Origin: a virus
Lineage: Duplodnaviria; Heunggongvirae; Uroviricota; Caudoviricetes
DNA length: 14,218 nucleotides
IMG/VR virus record: IMGVR_UViG_2529292920_000009
Reading direction: 5' to 3' (one strand)
Shown: positions 3 to 14,218 of the stretch, piece by piece
Layout of the letters: the number at the start of each line of letters is the position of its first letter
Numbering within the stretch: position 1 is the stretch's first letter
Translations under genes and position numbers: made by a program
Notes under the pieces: generated by a model
Seen by the model: the letters and a program-made list of their open reading frames with translations, nothing else
Database searches by the model: none
What the model was told of the DNA's origin: nothing

Positions 3-1817
3 TTACATGTCTTTGAAGGCATCGCCATTTTTAATGCGCTGAAAACACATGGTGCGTCCATTACCGTTTATGTCGACGGTGTGGCGGCGTCAATGGCGTC
101 GGTCATTGCGATGGTGGGAAACCCGGTCATTATGCCGGAAAACACCTTCATGATGATTCATAAACCATTTGGCTTTACGGGCGGTGATGCGGAGGACATG
201 CGCACCTATGCCGACCTGCTCGATAAGGTTGAGGCGGTTCTGTTACCCGCTTATGCACAGAAAACCGGGAAAACCACCGATGAAATTGCTGCCATGCTGG
301 CGGATGAGACCTGGATGTCCGGTGCCGAATGTCTGGCACATGGATTTGCTGATCAGGTGACGCCAGCCGTTAAGGCAATGGCATGTATTCAGTCAAAACG
401 TACAGAGGAATTTAAAAAGATGCCGGAATCCATTCGAAACATGATTACTCCGCCACGCAACAGTGCTCCATGCGTACAGGATGATGAACCTGCAGCCTCC
501 CGGACGCCAGTGCAGGCAGCAGCACCCGTGGTGGATGAAAACAGTATCCGTGCGCAGGTACTGGCAGAGCAAAAAGCGCGTGTAAACGGTATTAATGATC
601 TGTTTGCCATGTTTGGCGGGCGTTATCAGACGCTGCAGGCTCAGTGTCTTGCCGATCCTGAATGTTCGCTGGAGCAGGCCCGCGAAAAGTTGTTGAACGA
701 GATGGGGCGCGAGTCCACGCCATCCAATAAAAATACCCCGGCTCATATTTATGCCGGTAACGGTAATTTTGTGGGGGACGGGATCCGCCAGGCGCTGATG
801 GCGCGTGCCGGATTTGAAAAAACCGAACGTGATAATGTCTACAACGGGATGACCCTGCGTGAATATGCCCGTATGTCACTGACTGAACGGGGTATTGGGG
901 TTTCCAGTTATAACCCGATGCAGATGGTCGGTGCGGCGTTCACACACAGTACGTCTGACTTCGGTAATATTCTGCTGGATGTTGCGAACAAAGCCATTCT
1001 GCAGGGCTGGGAAGATGCCCCTGAAACCTATGAACAGTGGACGCGGAAAGGTCAGTTGTCTGATTTTAAAATTGCCCATCGTGTGGGTATGGGGGGCTTC
1101 AGTGCTCTGCGTCAGGTGCGTGAAGGGGCGGAATATAAATACGTCACCACCGGAGATAAACAGGCCACTATTGCACTGGCGACCTATGGCGAGCTGTTCA
1201 GTATCACCCGTCAGGCCATTATCAATGATGATCTGAATATGCTGACCGATGTCCCGATGAAACTGGGCCGTGCGGCGAAATCCACTATTGCCGATCTGGT
1301 TTATGCCATTCTGACGTCTAACCCGAAAATCTCCACAGATAATGTAAGTCTGTTCGATAAAGCGAAACATGCAAACGTACTGGAGAGCGCTGCAATGGAC
1401 GTGGCATCGCTGGATAAAGCCCGCCAGTTGATGCGCGTTCAGAAAGAGGGGGAGCGTCATCTGAATATTCGTCCTGCGTTCGTACTGGTACCGACGGCGA
1501 TGGAGTCTGTTGCTAACCAGGTCATTCGCTCCTCAAGTGTCAAGGGGGCTGACATTAACGCCGGTATTATTAACCCGGTGAAAGATTTTGCGACCGTTAT
1601 TGCAGAGCCTCGTCTTGATGATAACAGCCAGACCACCTTCTACCTGGCTGCGTCCAAAGGCTCCGATACGATTGAAGTGGCTTATCTCAACGGTGTGGAT
1701 ACGCCATATATTGATCAGATGGAGGGCTTCAGTGTGGATGGCGTGACAACGAAAGTGCGTATTGACGCCGGTGTCGCGCCAGTTGATCACCGCGGTCTGG
1801 TGAAATGTACGGCGTAA
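3..1817 (+). CDS. Prohead protease (ClpP/S14-like) fused to major capsid protein; 5' end lies upstream of the window
   Basis: Frame 3 is open from the first base of the window to TAA at 1815-1817, so the listed ORF at 81 is an internal start. The N-terminal part carries a ClpP-like motif (GVAASMAS, then MMIHKP); the C-terminal ~400 aa has the size and position of a major capsid protein immediately upstream of head-tail genes. Family assignment is from memory of E. coli prophage protease-capsid fusions. Confidence 0.85.
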   Translation, partial: LHVFEGIAIFNALKTHGASITVYVDGVAASMASVIAMVGNPVIMPENTFMMIHKPFGFTGGDAEDMRTYADLLDKVEAVLLPAYAQKTGKTTDEIAAMLADETWMSGAECLAHGFADQVTPAVKAMACIQSKRTEEFKKMPESIRNMITPPRNSAPCVQDDEPAASRTPVQAAAPVVDENSIRAQVLAEQKARVNGINDLFAMFGGRYQTLQAQCLADPECSLEQAREKLLNEMGRESTPSNKNTPAHIYAGNGNFVGDGIRQALMARAGFEKTERDNVYNGMTLREYARMSLTERGIGVSSYNPMQMVGAAFTHSTSDFGNILLDVANKAILQGWEDAPETYEQWTRKGQLSDFKIAHRVGMGGFSALRQVREGAEYKYVTTGDKQATIALATYGELFSITRQAIINDDLNMLTDVPMKLGRAAKSTIADLVYAILTSNPKISTDNVSLFDKAKHANVLESAAMDVASLDKARQLMRVQKEGERHLNIRPAFVLVPTAMESVANQVIRSSSVKGADINAGIINPVKDFATVIAEPRLDDNSQTTFYLAASKGSDTIEVAYLNGVDTPYIDQMEGFSVDGVTTKVRIDAGVAPVDHRGLVKCTA

Positions 1818-1840
1818 ACGTCGCAGACAACAACTCTGAT

Positions 1841-1860
1841 GGCCCGTAAGGGCTTTTTTT
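1841..1860 (+). terminator. Weak terminator-like hairpin after the capsid gene (GGCCC-GTAA-GGGCT stem with GNRA loop, then T7)
   Basis: Seen directly: 4-5 bp GC stem with GTAA tetraloop at 1841-1854 followed by TTTTTTT at 1854-1860, 24 nt after the capsid stop. The stem is short, so this may only attenuate. Confidence 0.35.
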
Positions 1861-1903
1861 GTACCTGAAATCAGCCCCTGAACGGGGCTGTGCGGAGACA
1901 GTT

Positions 1904-2227
1904 ATGGCAAAGAATTTTGTAGAAGAAGGAAAAACGGTGGCGATTGTTGCCAGTGCAGCCATCAGCAGCGGAGATCTGGTGCAGGTGGGTGATGTTTTTG
2001 CGGTGGCGCTGACCGATATTCCACAGGGTGAAACAGGCGACGGCATGACCGAAGGTGTGTTTATCCTGCCTAAGCTGAAAACGGATGACATGAAAACGGG
2101 TAAGAAGGTTTATCTGAAGTCCGGAAAAGTTCAGCTGACTAACAGCGGCTCTGATCCGCTGGTCGGGGTTGTCTGGGCAGATGCCGGAACCAGTGCAGAA
2201 GAAGTGCCGGTAAAACTCAATGTCTGA
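1904..2227 (+). CDS. Small phage head protein (DUF2190-like; possible head decoration/stabilisation protein)
   Basis: ATG at 1904 is preceded by GGAG at 1894-1897 (6 nt spacing); the ORF-track start at 1859 is an upstream TTG inside the hairpin region. Product MAKNFVEEGKTVAIV... sits directly after the capsid gene. Family assignment is from memory. Confidence 0.7.
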   Translation: MAKNFVEEGKTVAIVASAAISSGDLVQVGDVFAVALTDIPQGETGDGMTEGVFILPKLKTDDMKTGKKVYLKSGKVQLTNSGSDPLVGVVWADAGTSAEEVPVKLNV

Positions 2228-2495
2228 TCCCTTTTCTCGGCTGGCAGCGCGTATGGATGCGATCACGGTCAGAAAGATGGGAAAGACAGCCTCGATTAAT
2301 GATGTCGATATGGCTGTGATCCCGGGCGAAACACTGGCAGAGCTGAATGCTCTGTCCGGACCTGCTGTCTCTCTGGTGGTGTTTTCTTTGGGATACCGCC
2401 CACGGCGCGGGGATCGCGTTGTTTATGACGGACAACATTGGACGGTCACACGGCATGAACGCTTTAACGGTAAGCCAATGATCTTTATTGAGTAA
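2220..2495 (+). CDS. Putative head-tail joining/adaptor protein (FII-like position)
   Basis: ATG at 2220 overlaps the upstream stop (ATGTCTGA), indicating translational coupling; 91 aa, located between head genes and the Z homologue. Function is inferred from position and size. Confidence 0.6.
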   Translation: MSDPFSRLAARMDAITVRKMGKTASINDVDMAVIPGETLAELNALSGPAVSLVVFSLGYRPRRGDRVVYDGQHWTVTRHERFNGKPMIFIE

Positions 2496-2506
2496 AGAGG
2501 TGTGGG

Positions 2507-3085
2507 ATGAAGGGGCTTGAGAATGCCATCCGCAATCTGAACAGCCTTGATACCCGTATGGTGCCACAGGCCAGCGCATGGGCGATAAACCGTGTGGCAC
2601 AGAAAGCGGTCTCGGTTGCCACCCGGCAGGTTGCCGGGAATACCGTTGCGGGAGATAACCAGGTGAAAGGGATACCCCTGAAACTGGTACGTCAGCGTGT
2701 CCGGGTGTTTAAAGCCAGTCCGTCAGGAAAAATGACGGCCAGGATCCGCGTCAACCGGGGCAATCTGCCCGCCATTAAGCTGGGGACAGCCCGGGTCAGA
2801 CTGGCCCGGCGTGGTGGAAAACTGCAGTACCGTGGCAGTGTGCTGAAGGTGGGTAAATATCTTTTCCGGGATGCGTTTATTCAGCAACTGGCGAATGGTC
2901 GCTGGCATGTGATGCGGCGTATTGATGGCAAAAATCGTTACCCCATTGATGTGGTGAAAATCCCGTTGTCCGGACCGCTGACACAGGCATTTGAAGATGC
3001 CCGCGACCGCATCATTGCTGCGGAAATGCCGAAACAGTTGGGTTATGCACTGAAACAACAACTGAGGTTATGGCTGACCCGATGA
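2507..3085 (+). CDS. Z: Minor tail protein Z (tail completion), lambda gpZ-like
   Basis: ATG at 2507 with AAGAGG at 2495-2500. 192 aa, the same length I recall for lambda gpZ, with a recognisable gpZ-like C-terminal region (NGRWHVMRRIDGKNRYPIDVVKIP...GYAL). Confidence 0.85.
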   Translation: MKGLENAIRNLNSLDTRMVPQASAWAINRVAQKAVSVATRQVAGNTVAGDNQVKGIPLKLVRQRVRVFKASPSGKMTARIRVNRGNLPAIKLGTARVRLARRGGKLQYRGSVLKVGKYLFRDAFIQQLANGRWHVMRRIDGKNRYPIDVVKIPLSGPLTQAFEDARDRIIAAEMPKQLGYALKQQLRLWLTR

Positions 3086-3483
3086 ACCGACATACACAAA
3101 TCCGCCAGGTCGTACTGGCACGCCTTCGGGAACAGTGTGGAGACAGCGCCACGTTTTTTGACGGGCTTCCGGCATTTGTTGATGCGCAGGAACTGCCTGC
3201 CGTGTCGGTGTGGCTGAGTGATGCTCAGTACACCGGAAAAATGACGGATGAAGATGACTGGCAGGCTGTTCTGCATATTGCTGTCTTCATCCGGGCACAA
3301 GCACCGGATTCAGAGCTGGATATGTGGATGGAGAGCACCATTTTCCCGGCCCTGAATGATGTACCGGCACTTTCCGGACTCATCGACACCCTGATCCCAC
3401 TCGGTTTTAACTATCAACGTGATAATGAGATGGCCACCTGGGCGATGGCGGAAATCACGTACCAGATCACGTACACGAATTAA
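3070..3483 (+). CDS. U: Tail terminator protein U, lambda gpU-like
   Basis: Product contains ATFFDG, PAVSVWL and a C-terminal ITYxITY region resembling lambda gpU as I recall it. Start is ambiguous: ATG 3070 (GAGG only 2 nt upstream) or ATG 3082 (aligns better with the lambda N-terminus MKHTELR). Overlaps the Z stop at 3083-3085. Confidence 0.8.
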   Translation: MADPMNRHTQIRQVVLARLREQCGDSATFFDGLPAFVDAQELPAVSVWLSDAQYTGKMTDEDDWQAVLHIAVFIRAQAPDSELDMWMESTIFPALNDVPALSGLIDTLIPLGFNYQRDNEMATWAMAEITYQITYTN

Positions 3484-3493
3484 GGAGGTGGTA

Positions 3494-4237
3494 ATGACCA
3501 CACCAAATCCACTGGCAAAAACGAAAGGTGCGGGAACGACGTTCTGGATGTATACCGGCAACGGCGACGCATTTGCGAACCCTTTGTCGGACACTGACTG
3601 GCTGCGTCTTGCGATGGTGAAGGATCTGCAACCTGGCGAAATGACCGCTGATGCAGAAGATGACACTTATCTCGATGATGAAGATGCAGACTGGAAAACG
3701 ACAACCCAGGGGCAGAAATCCGTTGGTGATACTTCGGCGACGCTGGCCTGGCGTCCGGGTGACAGCGGGCAGAAAAAACTGGTTCAGTTGTTCGACTCCG
3801 GTGAAGTCTGCGCGTTTCGTATCAAATATCCCAACGGCACTGTTGATGTTTTCCGTGGCTGGCTGAGCTCACTGGGTAAAACCATTGCCTCAAAAGACGT
3901 GATGACCCGCACAGTGAAAATCAGCGGTGTGGGGCGTCCGTATCTGGCAGAGGAGGGCACTGAAACTGTGGGCGTTACCGGGCTGACGGTGGCACCGGCA
4001 TCTGCCAGTGTAAAAGTGGGAGCAACCACCACGCTGACCTTTACAGTAAAACCTGACGGAGCCAGTGACAAAGCGATCAGTGTGCATTCGACAGATCCAC
4101 AGACTGCCACGGTGACCCTGAACGGGCTTGTGGCCACGGTGAAAGGCGTGAAGCAGGGCAGTGTCAGCATTGTGGGCATGACTTCTGACGGCGATTTTGT
4201 GGCAGTGGCTGCGGTGGCTGTCAGCGCCGCAGGTTAA
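3494..4237 (+). CDS. V: Major tail protein V with C-terminal Ig-like (Big_2-type) domain, lambda gpV-like
   Basis: Strong SD AAGGAGGT at 3482-3489 and ATG at 3494; the ORF-track start at 3419 is upstream and overlaps U. N-terminus MTTPNPLAKTKGAGTTFWMY...NPLSD...DLQPGEMTA...YLDDEDADW matches lambda gpV from memory; the C-terminal ~90 aa is an Ig-like segment. Confidence 0.9.
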   Translation: MTTPNPLAKTKGAGTTFWMYTGNGDAFANPLSDTDWLRLAMVKDLQPGEMTADAEDDTYLDDEDADWKTTTQGQKSVGDTSATLAWRPGDSGQKKLVQLFDSGEVCAFRIKYPNGTVDVFRGWLSSLGKTIASKDVMTRTVKISGVGRPYLAEEGTETVGVTGLTVAPASASVKVGATTTLTFTVKPDGASDKAISVHSTDPQTATVTLNGLVATVKGVKQGSVSIVGMTSDGDFVAVAAVAVSAAG

Positions 4238-4257
4238 CAGGACGATACTCATCATTT

Positions 4258-4282
4258 GCCCCGGTTATCCGGGGCTTTTTTT
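4258..4282 (+). terminator. Rho-independent terminator or attenuator between V and G
   Basis: Seen directly: perfect 7-bp GC stem GCCCCGG (4258-4264), loop TTAT, CCGGGGC (4269-4275), then TTTTTTT (4276-4282), 20 nt after the V stop. Confidence 0.55.
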
Positions 4283-4294
4283 CAGGTGGAGAAC

Positions 4295-4684
4295 ATGATG
4301 TTTCTGAAACAGGGCACGTTTAATTATGAAAAGCAGTCCGTGGTGCTCAGTGAGCTGTCCGGGCTGCAGAGAATTGAATATCTGGCGTTTGTTCAGCAGC
4401 GAACGGCAAAGTTTGATGCCGAAGAGGGAGAACTGCCGGAGGCTGAACGACAGATTGCTTTTCTGCGGATGGGGATGGATATCAATGCCTGGCTGGTTTC
4501 CCGCTCACAGTGGAATGCGGATCAGTCTAAGGATGTAGAGACGCTTTGCGCATCCGTTATTACAACATGGTCGTATGATGCCCTGGGTGCGGGGGCGGAG
4601 ATGGTTCTGTCGCTGAGCGGTATGGGGACCATTGATAATGCCGGGGATGATGAGCATGAGGCGCTGACGCCGGAAAAGTCCTGA
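4295..4684 (+). CDS. G: Tail assembly chaperone G, lambda gpG-like
   Basis: Tandem ATG at 4295/4298 with GGTGGAG at 4285-4291; MFLK...VLSELSGLQRIEYLAF resembles the lambda gpG N-terminus (MFLK...TLSELSALQRIEHLA, from memory). Stop TGA at 4682-4684. Confidence 0.85.
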   Translation: MMFLKQGTFNYEKQSVVLSELSGLQRIEYLAFVQQRTAKFDAEEGELPEAERQIAFLRMGMDINAWLVSRSQWNADQSKDVETLCASVITTWSYDALGAGAEMVLSLSGMGTIDNAGDDEHEALTPEKS

Positions 4685-5022
4685 CGCGGGAAATGCAGTT
4701 TGTCATGCGGCTTGCCCGGGAGTTCCGGCGGGCAGACTGGCGGCGGATGCTGTCGGAAATGTCGGCCACTGAGCTTGGTGAGTGGGGCGATTATTTCCGG
4801 ATGCAGAGCTTCAGTGATGTGTGGATGGATGCGCAGTTTGCCTCGCTGAAGGCATTGATCGTGAGAATGGTGTCCGGCAGCAGTGATGCTGCGGTGGCTG
4901 ATTTCAGCCTTTTACCGGAAGAGAACGGGATACCGGAGCGAACGGACGAAGAACTGATGCATCTTGGGGAAGGTATTTCCGGAGGTGTGCGTTATGGACC
5001 AGATAGCCAACCTGGTCATTGA
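4672..5022 (+). CDS. T: T portion of the tail assembly chaperone G-T fusion, expected to be made by -1 programmed frameshift from G
   Basis: The -1 frame relative to G is open from 4660 (upstream TGA at 4657-4659) to TGA at 5020-5022 and overlaps the last codons of G (GAA AAG TCC TGA). This is the conserved lambdoid G/G-T arrangement; the exact slip point is inferred. Confidence 0.7.
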   Translation, partial: GKVLTREMQFVMRLAREFRRADWRRMLSEMSATELGEWGDYFRMQSFSDVWMDAQFASLKALIVRMVSGSSDAAVADFSLLPEENGIPERTDEELMHLGEGISGGVRYGPDSQPGH

Positions 5023-5647
5023 TTTGGGGATTGATGCGGCAGAGTTTAAAAATGAAATCCCCCGTATCAAAAACCTTCTGAATGGTGCAGCCAGCGATGC
5101 AGAACGGTCTTCTGCCCGTATGCAGCGTTTTATGGAGCGTCAGACTCAGGCCGCCCGGCAGACAACGCAGGCGGCTTCTTCGGCTGCAACAGCCGCATCC
5201 GTCCATGCGCAGACGGTGGAGAAGAACGCACAGGCTCATGAACGCATGGCCCGCGAGGTGGAGAAAACCCGCCAGCGCATGGAGGCGCTGAGCCAGAAAA
5301 TGCGCGAGGAACAGGCGCAGGCCATGGCTCTGGCGGAGGCTCAGGATAAAGCGGCTGCTGCGTTTTATCGTCAGATTGACAGTGTGAAACAGGCCAGTGC
5401 GGGGCTGCAGGAATTACAGCGTATTCAGCAGCAGATCCGACAGGCCAGAAACAGTGGCGGGATTGGTCAGCAGGATTATCTGGCGCTGATTTCTGAGGTT
5501 ACGGCGAAAACCCGTGTTCTTACACAGGCTGAGGAAGAGGGTACCCGACAGAAAGTGGCGTTTATCCGTCAGCTTAAAGAGCAGGCAACCCGCCAGAATC
5601 TTTCATCTTCTGAGTTGCTTCGTGCTAAGGCTGCCCAGCTGGGGTAA
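4994..5647 (+). CDS. H: Tape-measure protein H, N-terminal fragment (ends at in-frame TAA)
   Basis: ATG at 4994 with GGAGG at 4980-4984; overlaps the end of T by 29 nt. I preferred this start over the upstream ATG at 4964 because of the SD and the lambda-like N-terminus. Confidence 0.75.
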   Translation: MDQIANLVIDLGIDAAEFKNEIPRIKNLLNGAASDAERSSARMQRFMERQTQAARQTTQAASSAATAASVHAQTVEKNAQAHERMAREVEKTRQRMEALSQKMREEQAQAMALAEAQDKAAAAFYRQIDSVKQASAGLQELQRIQQQIRQARNSGGIGQQDYLALISEVTAKTRVLTQAEEEGTRQKVAFIRQLKEQATRQNLSSSELLRAKAAQLG

Positions 5648-5650
5648 GCA

Positions 5651-6673
5651 GTGCTGCAGAAGTGTATATCCGCAAAAATGGAGCAGGCAGGAAAAGCCAC
5701 GCATTCGCTGGGTCTGAAAAGTGCAGCGGCCCGCCAGGAGATAGGCGTTCTGATAGGTGAACTGGCCCGCGGCAATTTAGGGGCGCTGAGGGGATCCGGG
5801 ATAACGCTGGCTAACCGTGCCGGATGGATAGACACACTGATGTCACCGAAAGGCATGATGCTGGGCGGGGTTATTGGCGGTATTGCCGCAGCTGTCTATG
5901 GTCTGGGTAAAGCCTGGTATGACGGTCAGAAGGAGGGGGAAGAATTTAACCGCCAGCTGTCGCTGACGGGGCATTATGCCGGAGTCACTGCCGGGCAGCT
6001 GTGGACGCTCAGTCGTGCTATTTCCGGGAATGGTATCACGCAACATGCTGCAGCCGGTGCGCTGGCTCAGGTGGTGGGGAGTGGTGCATTTCGTGGAAAC
6101 GATATCGGTATGGTGGCGAGAGCTGCCGCACAGATGGAGCGATCGGTTGGCCAGTCGGTCAGCGATACCATAAGTCAGTTTAAGCGGCTGAAGGATGATC
6201 CTGTAAATGCCGCGAAGGCTCTGGACAATGAGCTGCATTTTCTTACTGCCACTCAGCTTGAGCAGATACGCGTCCTTGGGGAACAGGGGCGGTCCAGTGA
6301 TGCGGCACGGATAGCCATGTCTGCACTGGCAGAGGAAACCGGTCGGCGTACTGCGGATATTGATAATAACCTCAATGCGCTGGGCAGTACGCTGAAGTAT
6401 CTGTCTGATTTATGGAGTCGTTTCTGGGATGCGGCCATGAATATTGGTCGTGAAGACTCGCTGGATGAACAGATTTCCGCTTTACAGGAGAAAGTGTCGC
6501 GGGCGAAAAGACTCCCCTGGACGGCATCATCCTCTCAGGTTGAGTACGATCAGCAGCGTCTTAACGAGCTTCAGGAAAAAAACGCCAGAAGGATTTGCAG
6601 GATGCAAAAGAGCAGGCAGAGCGGAATTATCAGGAGCAACAGAAACGCCGTAATGCTGAAAATGCTGCACTGA
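5651..6673 (+). CDS. H: Tape-measure protein H, middle fragment (same frame as the N-terminal fragment)
   Basis: Reading frame resumes one codon after the TAA (GTG at 5651); it contains a hydrophobic Gly-rich segment (GMMLGGVIGGIAAAVYGLG) typical of tape-measure proteins; the frame is lost at the A7 tract near 6576-6582. Confidence 0.7.
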   Translation: MLQKCISAKMEQAGKATHSLGLKSAAARQEIGVLIGELARGNLGALRGSGITLANRAGWIDTLMSPKGMMLGGVIGGIAAAVYGLGKAWYDGQKEGEEFNRQLSLTGHYAGVTAGQLWTLSRAISGNGITQHAAAGALAQVVGSGAFRGNDIGMVARAAAQMERSVGQSVSDTISQFKRLKDDPVNAAKALDNELHFLTATQLEQIRVLGEQGRSSDAARIAMSALAEETGRRTADIDNNLNALGSTLKYLSDLWSRFWDAAMNIGREDSLDEQISALQEKVSRAKRLPWTASSSQVEYDQQRLNELQEKNARRICRMQKSRQSGIIRSNRNAVMLKMLH

Positions 6674-8049
6674 ACCGGATGAATGAAACGGAAGCAGCAC
6701 GACATCAGCGTGAAATTGCGCGTATTAATGCCATGCAGTACGCCGATCAGACTGTCAGGGATGCGGCGATACAACGTGAAAATGAACGTTACGAGAAAGC
6801 CCTGGCATCCGGTAAGAAAAAAACACGCGAAACCCGTAATGATGAGGCCACCCGGTTATTGCTGCAGTACAGTCAGCAACAGGCACAGGTGGAAGGACAG
6901 ATTGCTGCTGCCAGACAGTCAGCAGGCATTGCCACGGAAAGGATGACAGAAGCGCATAAACAGCTTCTGGCTCTGCAGCAGCGCATCAGCGACCTGGACG
7001 GGAAAAAACTGACGGCAGATGAAAAGAGTGTGCTGGCCCGTAAAGATGAACTGATTCTGGCACTGACGCTGCTGGATGTAAAACAGCAGGAGCTTCAGAA
7101 ACAGACGGCACTCAACGAGCTGAAGAAAAAAACAATTCAGCTGACCAGTCAACTGGCTGAAGAAGAGCGTGCTCAGCGTCAACAACATAATCTGGATATC
7201 GCCACGGTGGGTATGGGTGATCAGCAGCGGCAGCGATATCAGGTACAACTGAGTCTTCGTCAGAAATACCAGCAACAGCTGGAGCAGTTGAGGCGGGATA
7301 GTGAGCAGAAAGGGACATATAACACGGATGACTACAGAAAGGCCGAGCAGGCGCTGACGGAGAGCCTGAACCGACAACTGAATGAGAATCGCCGTTACTG
7401 GCAACAGCTTGAAATTGCTCAGGGTAACTGGAAAAACGGAGTCCTGCGTGCACTCCAGAATGTCACTGAGAATGCGGATAACACAGCCTGGACAGTGGAA
7501 CAGTTGTTCACGTCTGCGTTCAGTAGCATGAGTGACTGGCTGGCGACATTCTGTACTACAGGCAAACTCAATTTCAAATCTTTTACTTCTTCTGTGCTGT
7601 CAGATATGTCCAGAATCATGGCTCAGATAGCTTTAATGAAAGCGGTAAAAGGCATTGCTTCCGCGCTGCCTTTTGATTTTGTAGCCAATGCTGATGGCGG
7701 TGTTTATCAGTCGGCTGATTTGAGTCGCTACAGTGGCACGGTGGTTAACCGTCCGACGTTTTTTGCTTTTGCAAAAGGCGCGGGTGTGATGGGGGAAGCG
7801 GGACCTGAAGCCATTCTGCCATTGCGTCGTGGTGCTGACGGTAAGCTGGGGGGTGTGGCGGATATTGGGGGTTCAGGTATGGCGATGTTTTCCCCGCAGT
7901 ACAACATCGAGATCAATAACGATGGCACGAACGGGCAGATAGGTCCGGCTGCCCTGAAGGCGGTTTATGACCTCGGGAAAAAAGCGGCAGCGGACTTTAT
8001 GCAACAGCAGGCCCGTGATGGTGGTCGGTTAAGTGGAGCATATCGGTAA
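6595..8049 (+). CDS. H: Tape-measure protein H, C-terminal fragment (-1 frame)
   Basis: This frame is open from 6565; the ORF-track start at 6595 is a TTG. Gln/Glu/Arg-rich coiled-coil-like sequence ending in the conserved gpH C-terminus; stop TAA at 8047-8049 overlaps the M start (TAATG). Confidence 0.75.
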   Translation: MQDAKEQAERNYQEQQKRRNAENAALNRMNETEAARHQREIARINAMQYADQTVRDAAIQRENERYEKALASGKKKTRETRNDEATRLLLQYSQQQAQVEGQIAAARQSAGIATERMTEAHKQLLALQQRISDLDGKKLTADEKSVLARKDELILALTLLDVKQQELQKQTALNELKKKTIQLTSQLAEEERAQRQQHNLDIATVGMGDQQRQRYQVQLSLRQKYQQQLEQLRRDSEQKGTYNTDDYRKAEQALTESLNRQLNENRRYWQQLEIAQGNWKNGVLRALQNVTENADNTAWTVEQLFTSAFSSMSDWLATFCTTGKLNFKSFTSSVLSDMSRIMAQIALMKAVKGIASALPFDFVANADGGVYQSADLSRYSGTVVNRPTFFAFAKGAGVMGEAGPEAILPLRRGADGKLGGVADIGGSGMAMFSPQYNIEINNDGTNGQIGPAALKAVYDLGKKAAADFMQQQARDGGRLSGAYR

Positions 8050-8378
8050 TGGAGACGTTTCACTGGAAAGTGCGCCCGGATATGAATGTGGTATCAGAGC
8101 CGAAAGTGGTGACAGTGAAGCTGGGCGATGGTTATGAACAGCGTCGTGCGGCGGGACTGAATAACCAGTTGTCGACTTACAGCGTGACGATACGTGTTCG
8201 TAAATGTGAACACCCATCTTTAAAAGCCTTTCTGGAACGGCACGGTGGCGTCCGCGCATTTCAGTGGACGCCACCTTATGACTGGAAACCGATTAGGGTG
8301 GTTTGTCGTAAATGGTCGGCAAGCGTGGGGGCGCTGTGGGTAACCATAACGGCAGATTTTGAACAGGTCGTGGCATAG
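8049..8378 (+). CDS. M: Minor tail protein M, lambda gpM-like
   Basis: 109 aa; METFHWKVRPDM...GDGYEQR...LNNQLSTYSV...WTPPYDWK...FEQVV matches lambda gpM from memory; start overlaps the H stop. Confidence 0.9.
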   Translation: METFHWKVRPDMNVVSEPKVVTVKLGDGYEQRRAAGLNNQLSTYSVTIRVRKCEHPSLKAFLERHGGVRAFQWTPPYDWKPIRVVCRKWSASVGALWVTITADFEQVVA

Positions 8379-8387
8379 GAGGCTCTG

Positions 8388-9086
8388 ATGCAGGATATTC
8401 CACAGGAAACACATCATGAGACGACACGCCTCACTCAGTCAGCCCAGGTGGTGCTCTGGGAAATCGATCTGACAGAGGTCGGTGGTGAACGTTATTTTTT
8501 CTGTAATGAGCAGAACGAAAAAGGTGAGCCGGTTACCTGGCAGGGGCGGCAGTATCAGGCATACCCCATTCAGGGGACAGGATTTGAACTGAACGGCAAG
8601 GGCAGTGCTGCCCGTCCGACACTGACGGTTTCTAACCTGCACGGCATGGTCACGGGGATGGCGGAAGACCTGCAGAGTCTGGTCGGCGGAACGGTGGTCA
8701 GGCGTAAGGTTTACGCCCGTTTTCTGGATGCGGTGAACTTCGTCAACGGAAACAGCGACGCCGATCCGGAGCAGGAGGTGATCAGCCGCTGGCGCATCGA
8801 GCAGTGCAGCGAACTGAGTGCGGTCAGTGCCTCCTTTGTACTGTCCACGCCGACGGAAACGGATGGTGCTGTTTTTCCGGGGCGTATCATGCTGGCCAAC
8901 ACCTGCACCTGGACCTATCGCGGTGATGAGTGTGGTTATCACGGTCCGGCTGTCGCGGATGAATATGACCAGCCGACGTCCGATATCACGAAGGATAAAT
9001 GCAGCAAATGCCTGAGCGGCTGTAAGTTTCGCAATAACGTCGGCAACTTTGGCGGCTTCCTTTCCATTAACAAACTTTCGCAGTAA
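8388..9086 (+). CDS. L: Minor tail protein L, lambda gpL-like
   Basis: 232 aa; ATG at 8388 with GGAG at 8377-8380. Sequence (VVLWEIDLTEVGGERYFFCNEQNEKGEPVTWQGRQYQ...CSKCLSGCKFRNNVGNFGGF) is almost identical to lambda gpL as I recall it, including the C-terminal Cys cluster. Confidence 0.95.
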   Translation: MQDIPQETHHETTRLTQSAQVVLWEIDLTEVGGERYFFCNEQNEKGEPVTWQGRQYQAYPIQGTGFELNGKGSAARPTLTVSNLHGMVTGMAEDLQSLVGGTVVRRKVYARFLDAVNFVNGNSDADPEQEVISRWRIEQCSELSAVSASFVLSTPTETDGAVFPGRIMLANTCTWTYRGDECGYHGPAVADEYDQPTSDITKDKCSKCLSGCKFRNNVGNFGGFLSINKLSQ

Positions 9087-9090
9087 TCCC

Positions 9091-9834
9091 ATGACACAGA
9101 CAGAATCAGAGATTCTGGCGCACGCCCGGCGATGTGCGCCAGCGGAGTCGTGCGGCTTCGTGGTAAGCACGCCGGAGGGGGAAAGATATTTCCCCTGCGT
9201 GAATATCTCCGGTGAGCCGGAGGCGTATTTCCGTATGTCGCCGGAAGACTGGCTGCAGGCAGAAATGCAGGGTGAGGTGGTGGCGCTGGTCCACAGCCAC
9301 CCCGCTGGTCTGCCCTGGCTGAGTGAGGCCGACCGGCGGCTGCAGGTGCAGAGTGATTTGCCGTGGTGGCTGGTCTGCCGGGGGACAATTCATAAGTTCC
9401 GCTGTGTGCCGCATCTCACCGGGCGGCGCTTTGAGCACGGGGTGACGGACTGTTACACGCTGTTCCGGGATGCTTATCATCTGGCGGGGATTGAGATGCC
9501 GGATTTTCATCGCGAGGATGACTGGTGGCGTCACGGCCAGAATCTCTATCTGGATAATCTGGAGGCAACGGGGCTGTATCAGGTGCCGTTGTCAGCGGCG
9601 CAGCCGGGCGATGTGCTGCTGTGCTGTTTTGGTTCATCGGTGCCGAATCATGCCGCCATTTACTGCGGCGACGGCGAGCTGCTGCACCATATTCCTGAAC
9701 AACTGAGTAAACGAGAGAGGTACACCGACAAATGGCAGCGACGCACACACTCCCTCTGGCGTCACCGGGCATGGCACGCATCTGCCTTTACGGGGATTTA
9801 CAACGATTTGGCCGCCGCATCGACCTTCGTGTAA
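9091..9834 (+). CDS. K: Tail tip assembly protein K, lambda gpK-like, with JAMM/MPN and NlpC/P60-type motifs
   Basis: ATG at 9091, 5 nt after the L stop; N-terminus MTQTESEILAHARRCAP. An exact HxHx7Sx2D JAMM motif (HSHPAGLPWLSEAD) is encoded at 9292-9333, followed by a Cys (GVTDCYTLF) and His (PNHAAIYCGDG) pair characteristic of an NlpC/P60-type domain. Confidence 0.9.
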   Translation: MTQTESEILAHARRCAPAESCGFVVSTPEGERYFPCVNISGEPEAYFRMSPEDWLQAEMQGEVVALVHSHPAGLPWLSEADRRLQVQSDLPWWLVCRGTIHKFRCVPHLTGRRFEHGVTDCYTLFRDAYHLAGIEMPDFHREDDWWRHGQNLYLDNLEATGLYQVPLSAAQPGDVLLCCFGSSVPNHAAIYCGDGELLHHIPEQLSKRERYTDKWQRRTHSLWRHRAWHASAFTGIYNDLAAASTFV

Positions 9835-10379
9835 AAACGGGGGCTGAAGCCATCCGGGCGTTGTCCACACAGCTCCCGGCGTTTCGTCAGAAACTGAATG
9901 ACGGCTGGTATCAGGTGCGCATTGCCGGGCGTGATGCAGGTGAAACCGAATTATCTGCCCGTCTTAATGAGCCGCTGGCAAATGGTGCCGTGATCCACAT
10001 CGTGCCGCATCTGGCGGGAGCTAAAAGTGGCGGTGTGTTTCAGGTGGTGCTGGGGGCGGCGCTGATTGCGGTGGCATGGTGGAACCCTGTGGGCTGGCTG
10101 GGTGCCGCGGCTGTATCGGGCATGTATGCGGCAGGGGCCAGTATGATCCTGGGTGGTGTGGCCCAGATGCTGGCACCGAAAGCCCGGACGCCCACAGCGA
10201 CCAGCACGGATAACGGTAAGCAGAACACCTATTTCTCATCACTGGATAACATGGTTGCCCAGGGCAATGTTCTGCCTGTTCTGTACGGTGAAATGCGCGT
10301 GGGGTCTCGTGTGGTTTCTCAGGAGATCAGCACGGCAGATGAAGGGGACGGTGGTCAGGTTGTGGTGATTGGCCGCTGA
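9732..10379 (+). CDS. I: Tail tip assembly protein I, lambda gpI-like
   Basis: MAATHTLPLASPGMARICLYGDLQRFGRRIDLRV... and the C-terminus NVLPVLYGEMRVGSRVVSQEISTADEGDGG resemble lambda gpI from memory; the start overlaps the 3' end of K by 103 nt, as K and I do in lambda. Confidence 0.9.
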   Translation: MAATHTLPLASPGMARICLYGDLQRFGRRIDLRVKTGAEAIRALSTQLPAFRQKLNDGWYQVRIAGRDAGETELSARLNEPLANGAVIHIVPHLAGAKSGGVFQVVLGAALIAVAWWNPVGWLGAAAVSGMYAAGASMILGGVAQMLAPKARTPTATSTDNGKQNTYFSSLDNMVAQGNVLPVLYGEMRVGSRVVSQEISTADEGDGGQVVVIGR

Positions 10380-10397
10380 TGCAAAATATTTCATGTG

Positions 10398-10425
10398 AAA
10401 CCGCCTCCGGGCGGTTTTGTCGTTT
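10398..10425 (+). promoter_or_regulatory. Hairpin between I and J (8-bp stem AAACCGCC/GGCGGTTT, loop TCCG) with a T-rich tail; possible attenuator or RNA processing site
   Basis: Seen directly at 10398-10417, followed by TGTCGTTT; lies 19 nt after the I stop and just before the J Shine-Dalgarno (GGAG at 10428-10431). Confidence 0.35.
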
Positions 10426-10439
10426 ATGGAGCATAACGA

Positions 10440-12407
10440 ATGGGCAAAGGAAGCAGTAAGGGGCATACCCCGCGCGAAGCGAAGGACAACCTGAAGTCCA
10501 CGCAACTGCTGAGTGTGATTGATGCCATCAGCGAAGGGCCGATTGAAGGTCCGGTGGATGGATTAAAAAGCGTGCTGCTGAACAGTACGCCGGTGCTGGA
10601 CAGTGAAGGTAATACCAACATCTCCGGTGTCACGGTGGTGTTCCGGGCCGGTGAGCAGGAGCAGACACCGCCGGAGGGATTTGAATCCTCCGGCTCTGAG
10701 ACGGTGCTGGGTACGGAAGTGAAATACGACACGCCGATCACCCGCACCATCACGTCGGCAAACATCGATCGTCTGCGCTTTACTTTCGGTGTGCAGGCAC
10801 TGGTGGAAACCACCTCTAAGGGGGACCGGAATCCGTCGGAAGTCCGCCTGCTGGTTCAGATACAGCGTAACGGTGGCTGGGTGACGGAAAAAGACATCAC
10901 CATTAAAGGCAAAACCACCTCACAGTATCTGGCATCGGTGGTGGTGGGTAACCTGCCGCCGCGCCCGTTCAATATCCGGATGCGCAGGATGACGCCGGAC
11001 AGCACCACAGACCAGCTGCAGAACAAAACGCTCTGGTCGTCATACACCGAAATCATCGATGTGAAACAGTGCTACCCGAACACGGCACTGGTCGGCGTAC
11101 AGGTGGATTCGGAGCAGTTCGGCAGCCAGCAGGTGAGCCGTAATTATCATCTGCGCGGGCGTATTCTGCAGGTGCCGTCGAACTATAACCCGCAGACGCG
11201 GCAATACAGCGGTATCTGGGACGGAACGTTTAAGCCAGCATACAGCAATAACATGGCCTGGTGTCTGTGGGATATGCTGACCCATCCACGCTACGGCATG
11301 GGGAAACGTCTTGGTGCGGCGGATGTGGACAAATGGGCGCTGTATGTCATCGGCCAGTACTGCGACCAGTCAGTGCCGGACGGCTTTGGCGGCACGGAGC
11401 CGCGCATCACCTGTAATGCGTACCTGACCACACAGCGCAAGGCGTGGGATGTGCTCAGTGATTTCTGCTCGGCGATGCGCTGTATGCCGGTATGGAACGG
11501 GCAGACGCTGACGTTCGTGCAGGACCGACCGTCGGATAAGGTGTGGACCTATAACCGCAGTAATGTGGTGATGCCGGATGATGGCGCGCCGTTCCGCTAC
11601 AGCTTCAGCGCCCTGAAAGACCGCCATAATGCCGTTGAGGTGAACTGGATTGACCCGAACAACGGCTGGGAGACGGCGACAGAGCTTGTGGAGGATACGC
11701 AGGCCATTGCCCGTTACGGTCGTAACGTCACGAAGATGGATGCTTTTGGCTGTACCAGCCGGGGGCAGGCACACCGCGCCGGGCTGTGGCTGATTAAAAC
11801 AGAACTGCTGGAAACGCAGACCGTGGACTTCAGCGTGGGCGCAGAAGGGCTTCGCCATGTGCCGGGCGATGTCATTGAAATCTGTGATGATGACTATGCC
11901 GGTATCAGCATCGGCGGGCGCGTGCTGGCGGTAAACAGCCAGACCCGGACGCTGACGCTCGACCGTGAAATCACGCTGCCATCCTCCGGTACCACGCTGA
12001 TAAGCCAGGTTGACGGAAGTGGCAATCCGGTCAGCGTGGAGGTTCAGTCCGTCACCGACGGCGTGAAGGTAAAAGTGAGCCGTGTTCCTGACGGTGTTGC
12101 CGGATACAGCGTATGGGGGCTGAAGCTGCCGACGCTGCGCCAGCGACTGTTCCGCTGCGTGAGTATCCGTGAGAACGACGACGGCACGTATGCCATCACC
12201 GCCGTGCAGCATGTGCCGGAAAAAGAGGCCATCGTGGATAACGGGGCGCACTTTGACGGCGAACAGAGTGGCACGGTGAACGGTGTCACGCCGCCAGCAG
12301 TGCAGCACCTGACCGCAGAAGTCACCGCAGACAGCGGGGAATACCAGGTGCTGGCGCGCTGGGACACGCCGAAGGTGGTGAAGGGGGGAGCTTTATGCTT
12401 CGCCTGA
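10440..12407 (+). CDS. J: Host-specificity protein J, N-terminal fragment
   Basis: ATG at 10440 with GGAG at 10428-10431; [54 protein letters not shown]... matches lambda J; the frame ends 7 codons after the G6 tract. Confidence 0.85.
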
Positions 12408-13810
12408 CCGTGGCAGCGGATGACGGCAGTGAGCGGCTGGTCAGCACGGCCCGGACGACGGAAACCACATACCGCTTCAGGCAGCTGGCGTTGGGGCGTT
12501 ACACGCTGACAGTCCGGGCGGTAAATGCCCGGGGACAGCAGGGCGATCCGGCGTCGGTATCGTTCCGGATTGCCGCACCGGCAGCGCCGTCACAGATTGA
12601 GCTGACGCCGGGCTATTTTCAGATCACCGCCACGCCGCATCTTGCGGTTTATGATCCGACGGTACAGTTTGAGTTCTGGTTTTCGGAAAAGCGGATTACC
12701 GATATCAGGCAGGTTGAAACCAGCGCGCGCTATCTTGGCACGGGGATGTACTGGATAGCCGCCAGTATCAATATCAAACCGGGCCATGATTATTACTTTT
12801 ATATCCGCAGTGTGAACACCGTTGGCAAATCGGCATTCGTGGAGGCTGTCGGTCAGGCGAGCGATGATGCGGAAGGTTACCTGGATTTTTTCAAAGGCCA
12901 GATAACCGAATCCCATCTCGGCAAGGAGCTGCTGGAAAAAGTCGAGCTGACGGAGGATAACGCCAGCAAACTGGAGGAGTTTTCGAAAGAGTGGCAGGAC
13001 GCTAACGATAAGTGGAATGCCATGTGGGGCGTCAAAATTGAGCAGACCAAAGACGGCAAACATTATGTCGCGGGTATTGGCCTCAGCATGGAGGACACGG
13101 AAGAAGGCAAGCTGAGCCAGTTTCTGGTTGCCGCTAACCGTATCGCGTTTATTGACCCGGCAAACGGGAATGAAACGCCGATGTTTGTGGCGCAGGGCAA
13201 TCAGATATTTATGAACGACGTGTTCCTGAAGCGCCTGACGGCCCCGACCATTACCAGTGGTGGAAATCCACCGGCATTTTCCCTGACATCAGACGGAAAG
13301 CTGACCGCTAAAAATGCGGATATCAGTGGTAGAGTGAATGCGAACGCCGGGACGCTCAACAATGTCACGGTAAATGAAAACTGTACGATTAAGGGCATGC
13401 TGGAGGCGACTCAGGTCAGAGGTGACTTCGTTAAAGCTGTATCCAAATCATTTCCGAAACAGGCTGGTACGTGGGGTAACACGGAAACACCAAACGGGAC
13501 GGTTACAGTCACCATCAGCGATGATCATAACTTTGACCGTCAAATCATTATTCCGCCCATTATCTTTAACGGAATAGCGTATAGCTATCCGGGAAGTGGT
13601 AATAACCCGGGAGGTACAAGTTACACGGGTTATGGTTTCGAAGTTCGCAAAAACGGTGTATTAATCGCATCCAGAGAAACTAAAGGGGCCATTCCCGGTA
13701 GTTACAGTGCGGTTATTGATATGCCGAGTGGCAGGGGAGCGTCACTCTGGAGTTTAAGGTTTTCCATAAAGGCAATCAGTGGGCAGGTAATATCACCGAC
13801 TGTACGGTGA
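12395..13810 (+). CDS. J: Host-specificity protein J, C-terminal fragment (-1 frame relative to the N-terminal fragment)
   Basis: Continues the J sequence ([28 protein letters not shown]..., fibronectin-III-like region); the last ~150 aa look diverged from lambda and are more AT-rich; the frame ends at TGA 13808-13810 after the G4 tract. Confidence 0.8.
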
Positions 13811-13899: not shown

Positions 13900-14013
13900 G
13901 CAGAAAAGCGAGAGGTAATTATGCGTAAAGGTAACCGGCTCATTTAAACCGTCTGGTCTGTTTCCTCCGGCTCTACAAAAATAATGTCCATCATTTTTAA
14001 TGGACACTATCGT

Positions 14014-14218
14014 ATGAAACACCGGACCTGGATCACTGAAGCTTTACGTCTTCACTTTGAAGAACATTTACCCCGGGTTGTGGCCGGGCGTCGCCTGGGT
14101 GTACCAAAATCAACAGTTTGTAGTATGTTCGTGCGCTTTCGGAGAGCTGGCCTTTCGTGGCCTTTGCCCGCAGGCATGTCGGAGCAGGAACTTGATGCCT
14201 GCCTTTACGGACAATTTT
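14014..14218 (+). CDS. HTH-domain ORF, 3' end beyond the window; possibly the N-terminus of an IS transposase (family not determined)
   Basis: ATG at 14014 opens a frame that runs to the window edge (68 codons). It encodes a helix-turn-helix-like segment (GRRLGVPKSTVCSMFVRFRRAGL) of the kind seen at transposase N-termini. There is no clear SD, and a 7-bp inverted repeat lies immediately upstream (13985-14006). Confidence 0.4.
   Translation, partial: MKHRTWITEALRLHFEEHLPRVVAGRRLGVPKSTVCSMFVRFRRAGLSWPLPAGMSEQELDACLYGQF

What the first reader, a model, noticed from the sequence alone, without database searches (positions are those of the whole stretch)
5639..5653. In-frame TAA stop inside the tape-measure gene
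H fragments 1 and 2 are in the same frame and separated only by TAA at 5645-5647 (CTG GGG TAA GCA GTG CTG CAG...); the frame reopens at the next codon. This is a nonsense lesion rather than a gene boundary, since no SD or start signal precedes the downstream segment. An alternative is a pair of compensating indels: one extra G in the GGGG at 5641-5644 plus one fewer A in the AAAAA at 5674-5678 would read LGVSSAAEVYIRKMEQAGK... without a stop.
Basis: seen in the sequence. Interest (0 to 1): 0.45.

Follow-up and report, generated by a model that had tools for sequence, protein, structure and literature searches.

The report
Homopolymer miscalls break tape-measure gene
The stop codon inside this prophage tail tape-measure gene comes from one missing G and one extra A in two short base runs, is seen only in this one 2012 draft contig, and is most likely a sequencing error, so it is ordinary.

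Summary
The TAA at 5645-5647 is really in the deposited sequence, in frame within the lambda-H-like tape-measure gene (4994-8049). It is not a nonsense substitution and not a gene boundary. The window has GGGG (5641-5644) where every relative has GGGGG, and AAAAA (5674-5678) where every relative has AAAA. This -1/+1 pair misreads 11 codons and turns the bases T-A-A of GGG GTA AGC into a codon.

All 25 related loci I aligned carry G5/A4, including near-identical sister-strain copies. None of about 2000 copies in complete E. coli genomes matches the window allele. The G4 allele has 0 hits in the metagenome and viral collections, against at least 120 viral contigs with G5. The 217-aa truncated product is on record from one contig only, the window itself: AIEZ01000007.1, a DECA-collection E. 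coli draft.

A third run-length change (A7 versus A8, 6576-6582) also breaks the gene and occurs only in early drafts. Restoring the three run lengths gives a 1018-aa ORF two residues from phage cdtI gp13.

Best reading (about 0.68): homopolymer consensus errors in a draft assembly. Main rival (about 0.27): real, private slippage mutations in a prophage that is already defective. Either way the finding is ordinary.

The parts
4994..8049 (+). Lambda-H-like tail tape-measure gene. In the window it is broken into three called pieces: 4994-5647, 5678-6673 and 6679-8049.
   Evidence: Gene calls and Pfam hits TMP_2, TMP_4 and Tape_meas_lam_C. It is 99.8% identical to phage cdtI gp13. In-silico repair gives 1018 aa.
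5641..5644 (+). G4 run. All relatives have G5. This -1 change shifts the reading frame.
   Evidence: Alignments (25 of 25 loci have G5). Searches found 0 hits for the G4 allele. Searches found at least 120 viral loci with G5.
5645..5647 (+). The in-frame TAA. In relatives the same three bases straddle the codons GTA and AGC.
5645..5677 (+). Eleven misframed codons, *AVLQKCISAK, in place of VSSAAEVYIRK.
   Evidence: window and cdtI translations side by side.
5674..5678 (+). A5 run. All relatives have A4. This +1 change restores the original frame from ATG 5678 onward.
   Evidence: all 99 readable viral loci are G5/A4.
6576..6582 (+). A7 run. Most relatives have A8 or GA6. This second frameshift in the gene gives the stop at 6671-6673.
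   Evidence: Shared only with L020 (AIFC), L023 (AFJB) and L026 (SRR490664). None of 1970 places in complete E. coli genomes has it.
12383..12388 (+). G6 in the J gene where intact relatives have GGGGGTG. The loss of the T splits J into 655-aa and 471-aa pieces.
   Evidence: Shared with L010/L019, L021 and L022, which are separate assemblies, so it is probably real.
13931..14218 (+). Left end of an IS66-family element, inserted just after the third codon of lom.
   Evidence: annotated as IS66-like TnpA; 100% identical to the IS copy in L010.

Best explanation
The stop codon is a by-product of two one-base length differences in short homopolymer runs, G5 to G4 at 5641-5644 and A4 to A5 at 5674-5678. 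The first shifts the frame by -1, so that T-A-A, normally split across the codons GTA AGC, is read as a codon. The second, 30 nt downstream, puts the frame back. The most likely cause is base-calling or consensus error in the draft assembly the window comes from (contig AIEZ01000007.1, DECA collection, 2012), not a change in the living prophage. On this reading the real gene is continuous at this point. Shown here: the indel pair, its uniqueness to this contig, and the restoration of an intact ORF by repair. Inferred: that the cause is technical rather than biological.
For: (1) The window is the whole contig AIEZ01000007.1 of GCA_000249135.2. The AIEZ accession falls in the DECA draft-genome series.
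(2) All 25 related loci carry G5/A4. These include copies that share the window's rare SNPs at 471, 3955, 3967 and 4509 (L010/L019 and L020-L027).
(3) In complete E. coli genomes the best of 2000 places is 97.9% identical over 95 nt, which is the two gaps, so no copy carries either indel.
(4) The G4 allele has 0 hits in metagenome and viral contigs, against at least 120 viral contigs with G5.
(5) The 217-aa product is on record from this one contig only, whereas the neighbouring G protein variant is listed in 31 blocks.
(6) All three indels in the gene fall in runs of 4 or more bases, which make up 7.1% of the gene. Two of the contig's three private indels lie 34 nt apart with opposite sign. 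By my estimate the chance of this for independent events is below 1%. Selection cannot explain the second indel, because the stop comes before it.
(7) Other early drafts of the same prophage each carry their own +/-1 changes in A runs: L027 at 6817, L023 at 7126, L021 at 8221, plus the shared A8 to A7. The phage cdtI record, the two copies in the 5.1-Mb contig UFZD01000005.1 (L010, L011), and L022, L024 and L025 carry none.
(8) The A7 allele occurs in none of 1970 places in complete genomes.
(9) A 2012 paper on E. coli genomes sequenced at the Institute for Genome Sciences, which I recall (not verified here) is also where the DECA genomes were sequenced, reports 454 Titanium plus Celera assembly (PMC3491183). 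That platform's typical error is run-length miscalls (general knowledge).
(10) Restoring the three run lengths gives a 1018-aa ORF that differs from cdtI gp13 at 2 residues.
Against: No reads or quality values could be examined, and the sequencing platform of this particular assembly was not verified because the announcement paper is not held. Runs of 4 and 5 bases are short for consensus-level pyrosequencing errors at normal coverage. The contig also has private substitutions (6532, 7058, 10435, 10817), which pyrosequencing errors do not usually produce, so the strain or the contig has some further private differences. The prophage carries a J frameshift shared with separate assemblies and an IS66 insertion in lom. 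The tape-measure gene may therefore be under relaxed selection, where real slippage mutations would look the same.
Confidence: 0.68

Rival explanations
1. The two indels are real, recent replication-slippage mutations, or one clustered error-prone repair event, private to this strain. They lie in a tape-measure gene that no longer matters because the prophage is already defective. This would be an ordinary pseudogene lesion.
For: The J frameshift at 12383-12388 is shared with separate assemblies (L010/L019, L021, L022). An IS66-family element interrupts lom. The related E2348/69 prophage has its own tape-measure frameshift outside any base run, annotated as a pseudogene. The contig also has private substitutions. 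Slippage in runs is the commonest real frameshift mechanism (general knowledge).
Against: Three other lineages with the same J frameshift keep an intact 1018-aa gene (L010, L021, L022), so little time has passed for decay. Three private indels against 4 to 7 private SNPs is a high ratio. Two opposite-sign indels 34 nt apart have no selective explanation. No intermediate with only one indel exists among about 2000 copies. The same kind of private run-length change recurs in other early drafts, whereas L003, L010, L011, L022, L024 and L025 carry none.
Confidence: 0.27
2. A true nonsense substitution, in which a sense codon mutated to TAA.
For: Only that a TAA interrupts an otherwise open frame.
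Against: In every homologue the bases T, A, A are present unchanged. The difference is one G upstream and one A downstream, and the 11 intervening codons are misframed.
Confidence: 0.01
3. A natural arrangement: two adjacent genes, or a programmed recoding event (stop read-through, frameshifting, or termination followed by reinitiation at GTG 5651) that still yields a functional tape measure.
For: GTG 5651 lies 3 nt after the stop, with GGGG 6 nt upstream. Lambdoid tail operons do use programmed frameshifting in the upstream G/T genes (general knowledge).
Against: No homologue is split here. The configuration is absent from every other sequence examined, so it is not conserved. There are no promoter, terminator or RNA-family signals. 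Rescue would need two opposite frameshifts 30 nt apart.
Confidence: 0.02

Closest known systems
Phage cdtI gp13, tail length tape measure protein (YP_001272526.1, NC_009514.1 9697-12753)
   Same: 99.8% nucleotide identity over window 4900-8100. Same position between the T and M genes. The repaired window protein differs at 2 of 1018 residues.
   Different: cdtI has G5, A4 and A8 at the three runs and is a single open 1018-aa ORF. The window has G4, A5 and A7 and is called in three pieces.
Frameshifted tape-measure pseudogene of the E. coli E2348/69 prophage (E2348C_RS05460)
   Same: Same prophage lineage (99.3% identity over window 7-12000) and the same gene broken by a one-base deletion.
   Different: The E2348/69 lesion is a different deletion, outside any base run, at window-equivalent 7105, in a complete genome record. 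It has G5/A4 at the site of this finding.
Homopolymer run-length miscalls in pyrosequencing-era draft assemblies
   Same: +/-1 changes confined to base runs. They are private to single drafts, differ from draft to draft, and are absent from the six panel loci L003, L010, L011, L022, L024 and L025.
   Different: The platform of this assembly was not verified. Runs of 4 and 5 bases are shorter than the runs most prone to such errors.
Programmed -1 frameshift of lambda tail assembly chaperones G/GT
   Same: Same operon; the G and T genes lie just upstream at 4298-5022.
   Different: That signal is conserved and lies between G and T. The TAA in the tape-measure gene is not conserved in any relative and would need two opposite shifts.

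Membership tests
Lambda gpH-like tail tape measure protein | Pfam TMP_2, TMP_4 and Tape_meas_lam_C domains | tested here: met
   Precomputed Pfam hits on fragments 2 and 3. The same three families hit the intact 1018-aa homologues.
Lambda gpH-like tail tape measure protein | Position between the tail assembly genes G/T and the minor tail gene M | tested here: met
   Gene order Z-U-V-G-T-H-M-L-K-I-J in the window and in all relatives.
Lambda gpH-like tail tape measure protein | One uninterrupted ORF of about 1018 codons | tested here: not met
   The deposited sequence has the stop at 5645-5647 and a frameshift at 6576-6582. The feature is met only after in-silico repair.
Sequencing or assembly homopolymer artefact | The change is a +/-1 length difference inside a base run | tested here: met
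   G5 to G4, A4 to A5 and A8 to A7.
Sequencing or assembly homopolymer artefact | Absent from separate assemblies of near-identical sequence | tested here: met
   25 of 25 loci have G5/A4, as do 2000 places in complete genomes. Product look-ups return one contig only.
Sequencing or assembly homopolymer artefact | Produced on a platform prone to run-length errors | tested here: inconclusive
   A 2012 paper on genomes sequenced at the Institute for Genome Sciences reports 454 Titanium with Celera. The DECA announcement itself is not held.
Sequencing or assembly homopolymer artefact | Reads disagree with, or only weakly support, the consensus at the site | not testable with these tools
   No read data are available. 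No Logan re-assembly carrying this contig's private markers was found.
Nonsense (substitution) mutation | Homologues of equal length carry a sense codon one substitution away from TAA | tested here: not met
   Homologues have identical bases at T-A-A and differ by indels on either side.
Natural gene boundary or split tape-measure gene | Homologues also end and restart here, with start signals | tested here: not met
   All homologues have a single ORF. There is no promoter or terminator.
Programmed recoding site | The stop or slippery context is conserved among relatives | tested here: not met
   The allele was found in no other sequence.

The most novel reading that the evidence does not exclude
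The -1/+1 pair is real and arose in a single clustered event, for example a short tract copied by an error-prone polymerase during repair. It would sit in a prophage whose tail genes are decaying and would give a clean example of paired slippage mutations in a newly neutral gene. A weaker variant is that reinitiation at GTG 5651 yields a two-piece tape measure.
Probability: 0.2. Interest if true: 0.12.

Novelty: not a real feature. Interest (0 to 1): 0.05.

Why it matters
It matters mainly for housekeeping. The tape-measure gene in this contig should not be counted as three genes, or as a nonsense-mutated pseudogene, without checking the reads. The same contig shows several other run-length oddities. 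If the lesion were real it would be one more inactivating mutation in a defective E. coli prophage, which is common and expected.

Tried and rejected
- **Reads-level re-assembly of the same strain.** I looked for one through exact-product look-ups of fragment 1, the K protein and fragment 3. Only the deposited contig came back, so the reads question stays open.
- **Sequencing platform.** I tried to read the DECA announcement (PMC3370608) for the platform, but it is not held. Literature searches gave only circumstantial information from one 2012 paper on other E. coli genomes.
- **Strain name.** The name DEC1E is my inference from the accession order and is not verified.
- **Gene-boundary signals.** Rfam, promoter and terminator scans found nothing.
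- **Readings rejected.** A nonsense substitution, a natural two-gene arrangement and programmed recoding are all rejected on the alignments.
- **K patch at 9383-9387.** I considered whether this was another compensating error. It is an allele shared with L011, L020 and L023, so it is real.

Full report
**What is there.** The window reads CTG GGG TAA GCA GTG at 5639-5653. ORFs 4964..5647 and 5651..6673 share a frame. Translating across the site gives a single stop...LRAKAAQLG*AVLQKCISAKMEQAGK. The gene is the lambda-H-like tail tape-measure gene. It lies between the T and M genes in a Z-U-V-G-T-H-M-L-K-I-J block. Its pieces carry Pfam TMP_2, TMP_4 and Tape_meas_lam_C. It is 99.8% identical over 3.2 kb to phage cdtI gp13, a single 1018-aa ORF.

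**What makes the stop.** I aligned window 4900-8100 with phage cdtI and with the E. coli E2348/69 prophage. The T, A and A are unchanged in both. The window has GGGG at 5641-5644 where both have GGGGG, and AAAAA at 5674-5678 where both have AAAA. Relatives read GGG GTA AGC AGT GCT GCA GAA GTG TAT ATC CGC AAA ATG (G V S S A A E V Y I R K M). In the window the missing G brings TAA into frame, 11 codons are misread, and the extra A restores the frame at ATG 5678. The idea of a gene boundary does not hold either, because every homologue has one ORF and there are no promoter, terminator or RNA-family signals at the site. A third run-length difference, A7 at 6576-6582 against A8, causes the next break at 6673. 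Restoring the three run lengths in silico gives a 1018-aa ORF that differs from cdtI gp13 at two residues.

**How widespread it is.**
- A 95-nt query across the site found 2000 places in 1833 complete E. coli records. The best is 97.9% identical, which is the two gaps, so none carries either indel.
- A pattern that allowed either run length matched three species-representative genomes, and all three are G5/A4.
- The G4 allele has 0 matches in the metagenome and viral contig collections.

**Where the window comes from.** An exact-product look-up showed that the window is the entire contig AIEZ01000007.1 of draft assembly GCA_000249135.2, and that the 217-aa truncated product is on record from that contig alone. 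The AIEZ accession belongs to the DECA collection of diarrhoeagenic E. coli drafts published in 2012. The strain name DEC1E is my inference from the accession order.

**Sister copies.** The window's G protein variant, marked by a rare SNP at 4509, led to near-identical copies of the same prophage:
- two copies in one 5.1-Mb contig, UFZD01000005.1 (L010/L019 and L011);
- three other draft assemblies from accession series of similar date (AIFC, L020; AFJB, L023; ADUL, L021);
- one other draft (NJMD, L022);
- four Logan re-assemblies (L024-L027).

These share the window's rare SNPs at 471, 3955, 3967 and 4509, yet all have G5/A4. Against the full panel of 25 loci, the changes private to the window are the indels at 5640, 5674 and 13737, and substitutions at 6532, 7058, 10435 and 10817, plus three more substitutions where few loci cover the position.

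**Artefact or real mutation.** Several results point to error.
- All three indels in the gene lie in runs of 4 or more bases, which make up 7.1% of the gene.
- Two of the contig's three private indels lie 34 nt apart with opposite sign. I estimate the chance of that for independent events at below 1%. Selection cannot have favoured the second indel, because the stop precedes it.
- Other early drafts of this prophage each carry their own private +/-1 changes in A runs: L027 at 6817, L023 at 7126 and L021 at 8221. The phage cdtI record, the two copies in UFZD01000005.1, and L022, L024 and L025 carry none.
- The A7 allele is confined to AIEZ, AIFC, AFJB and one Logan run, and is absent from 1970 places in complete genomes.
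- A 2012 paper on E. coli genomes sequenced at the Institute for Genome Sciences reports 454 Titanium libraries assembled with Celera. I recall, but could not verify here, that the DECA genomes were sequenced at the same institute. Run-length miscalls are that platform's typical error (general knowledge).
- I could not verify the platform for this assembly, because the announcement paper is not held.

Other results point to a real mutation.
- The prophage is defective in its own right. The J frameshift at 12383-12388 is shared with three separate assemblies.
- An IS66-family element sits just after the third codon of lom.
- The E2348/69 relative has its own tape-measure frameshift.
- The contig has private substitutions.
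- Runs of 4 and 5 bases are short for consensus errors.

Three other lineages with the same J lesion still have an intact tape-measure gene, which argues that there has been little time for decay. I put the artefact reading at about 0.68 and a real private pseudogene lesion at about 0.27. The remainder is spread over the refuted or unsupported readings.

**Comparison with what is known.** The gene is a member of the lambda gpH tape-measure family by domains and gene order. As deposited, it fails only the requirement for a continuous ORF. The lesion matches the well-known class of homopolymer errors in early draft assemblies. Failing that, it matches ordinary prophage decay. It has none of the features of programmed recoding, because the configuration is conserved in no relative.

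**Verdict.** The finding is low in interest and has no novelty. Its practical value is a warning not to annotate three genes or a nonsense mutant here without checking the reads.

Noticed in passing
window 6576-6582: A second break in the tape-measure gene, A7 where most relatives have A8 or GA6. It is shared only with three other early data sets (AIFC, AFJB, SRR490664) and is absent from 1970 places in complete E. coli genomes. It is either a recurrent undercall of a long A run or a lineage-specific mutation.
   Followed up: partly
window 12383-12388 and 13738: The J gene is split into 655-aa and 471-aa pieces by loss of a T. Three separate assemblies share this, so it is probably real. A further private loss of one A at 13738 (AA to A) ends the second piece early.
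   Followed up: partly
window 13921-14218: The lom gene is interrupted just after its third codon by an IS66-family element (its tnpA end). Two complete E. coli genomes (NZ_CP045827.1, NZ_CP074764.1) match across this junction at 99.7%.
   Followed up: partly
window 341-13333: The contig alternates in blocks between the alleles of two prophages that sit together in one 5.1-Mb contig (L010 type and L011 type; runs of 28, 78, 38, 36 and 42 sites). This is either real recombination between prophages or a chimeric or collapsed assembly of two co-resident copies. The K protein that spans one switch point is unique to this contig.
   Followed up: partly
window 9383-9387: A 4-nt patch in the K gene (TGAG in some relatives, GACA here) aligns as a compensating indel pair. 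It is in fact a shared allele, also present in L011, L020 and L023.
   Followed up: yes
L002 (NC_011601.1), window-equivalent 7105: The E2348/69 copy of the same tape-measure gene has its own one-base deletion outside any base run and is annotated as a frameshifted pseudogene.
   Followed up: partly
L006 (JAGTSE010000010.1) and L007 (JAEWTL010000010.1): Two metagenome-assembled genomes, labelled as a soil Proteobacteria bacterium and a Bacillota bacterium, carry 8 kb that is 95-97.5% identical to this E. coli lambdoid tail block. The binning is probably wrong or the bins are contaminated.
   Followed up: no
window 6727-6964 versus MT713136.1 251326-251563: The record for Aeromonas phage AP1 holds an unannotated 238-bp stretch that is 98.7% identical to this E. 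coli tape-measure gene. It looks like a foreign fragment in that record.
   Followed up: no
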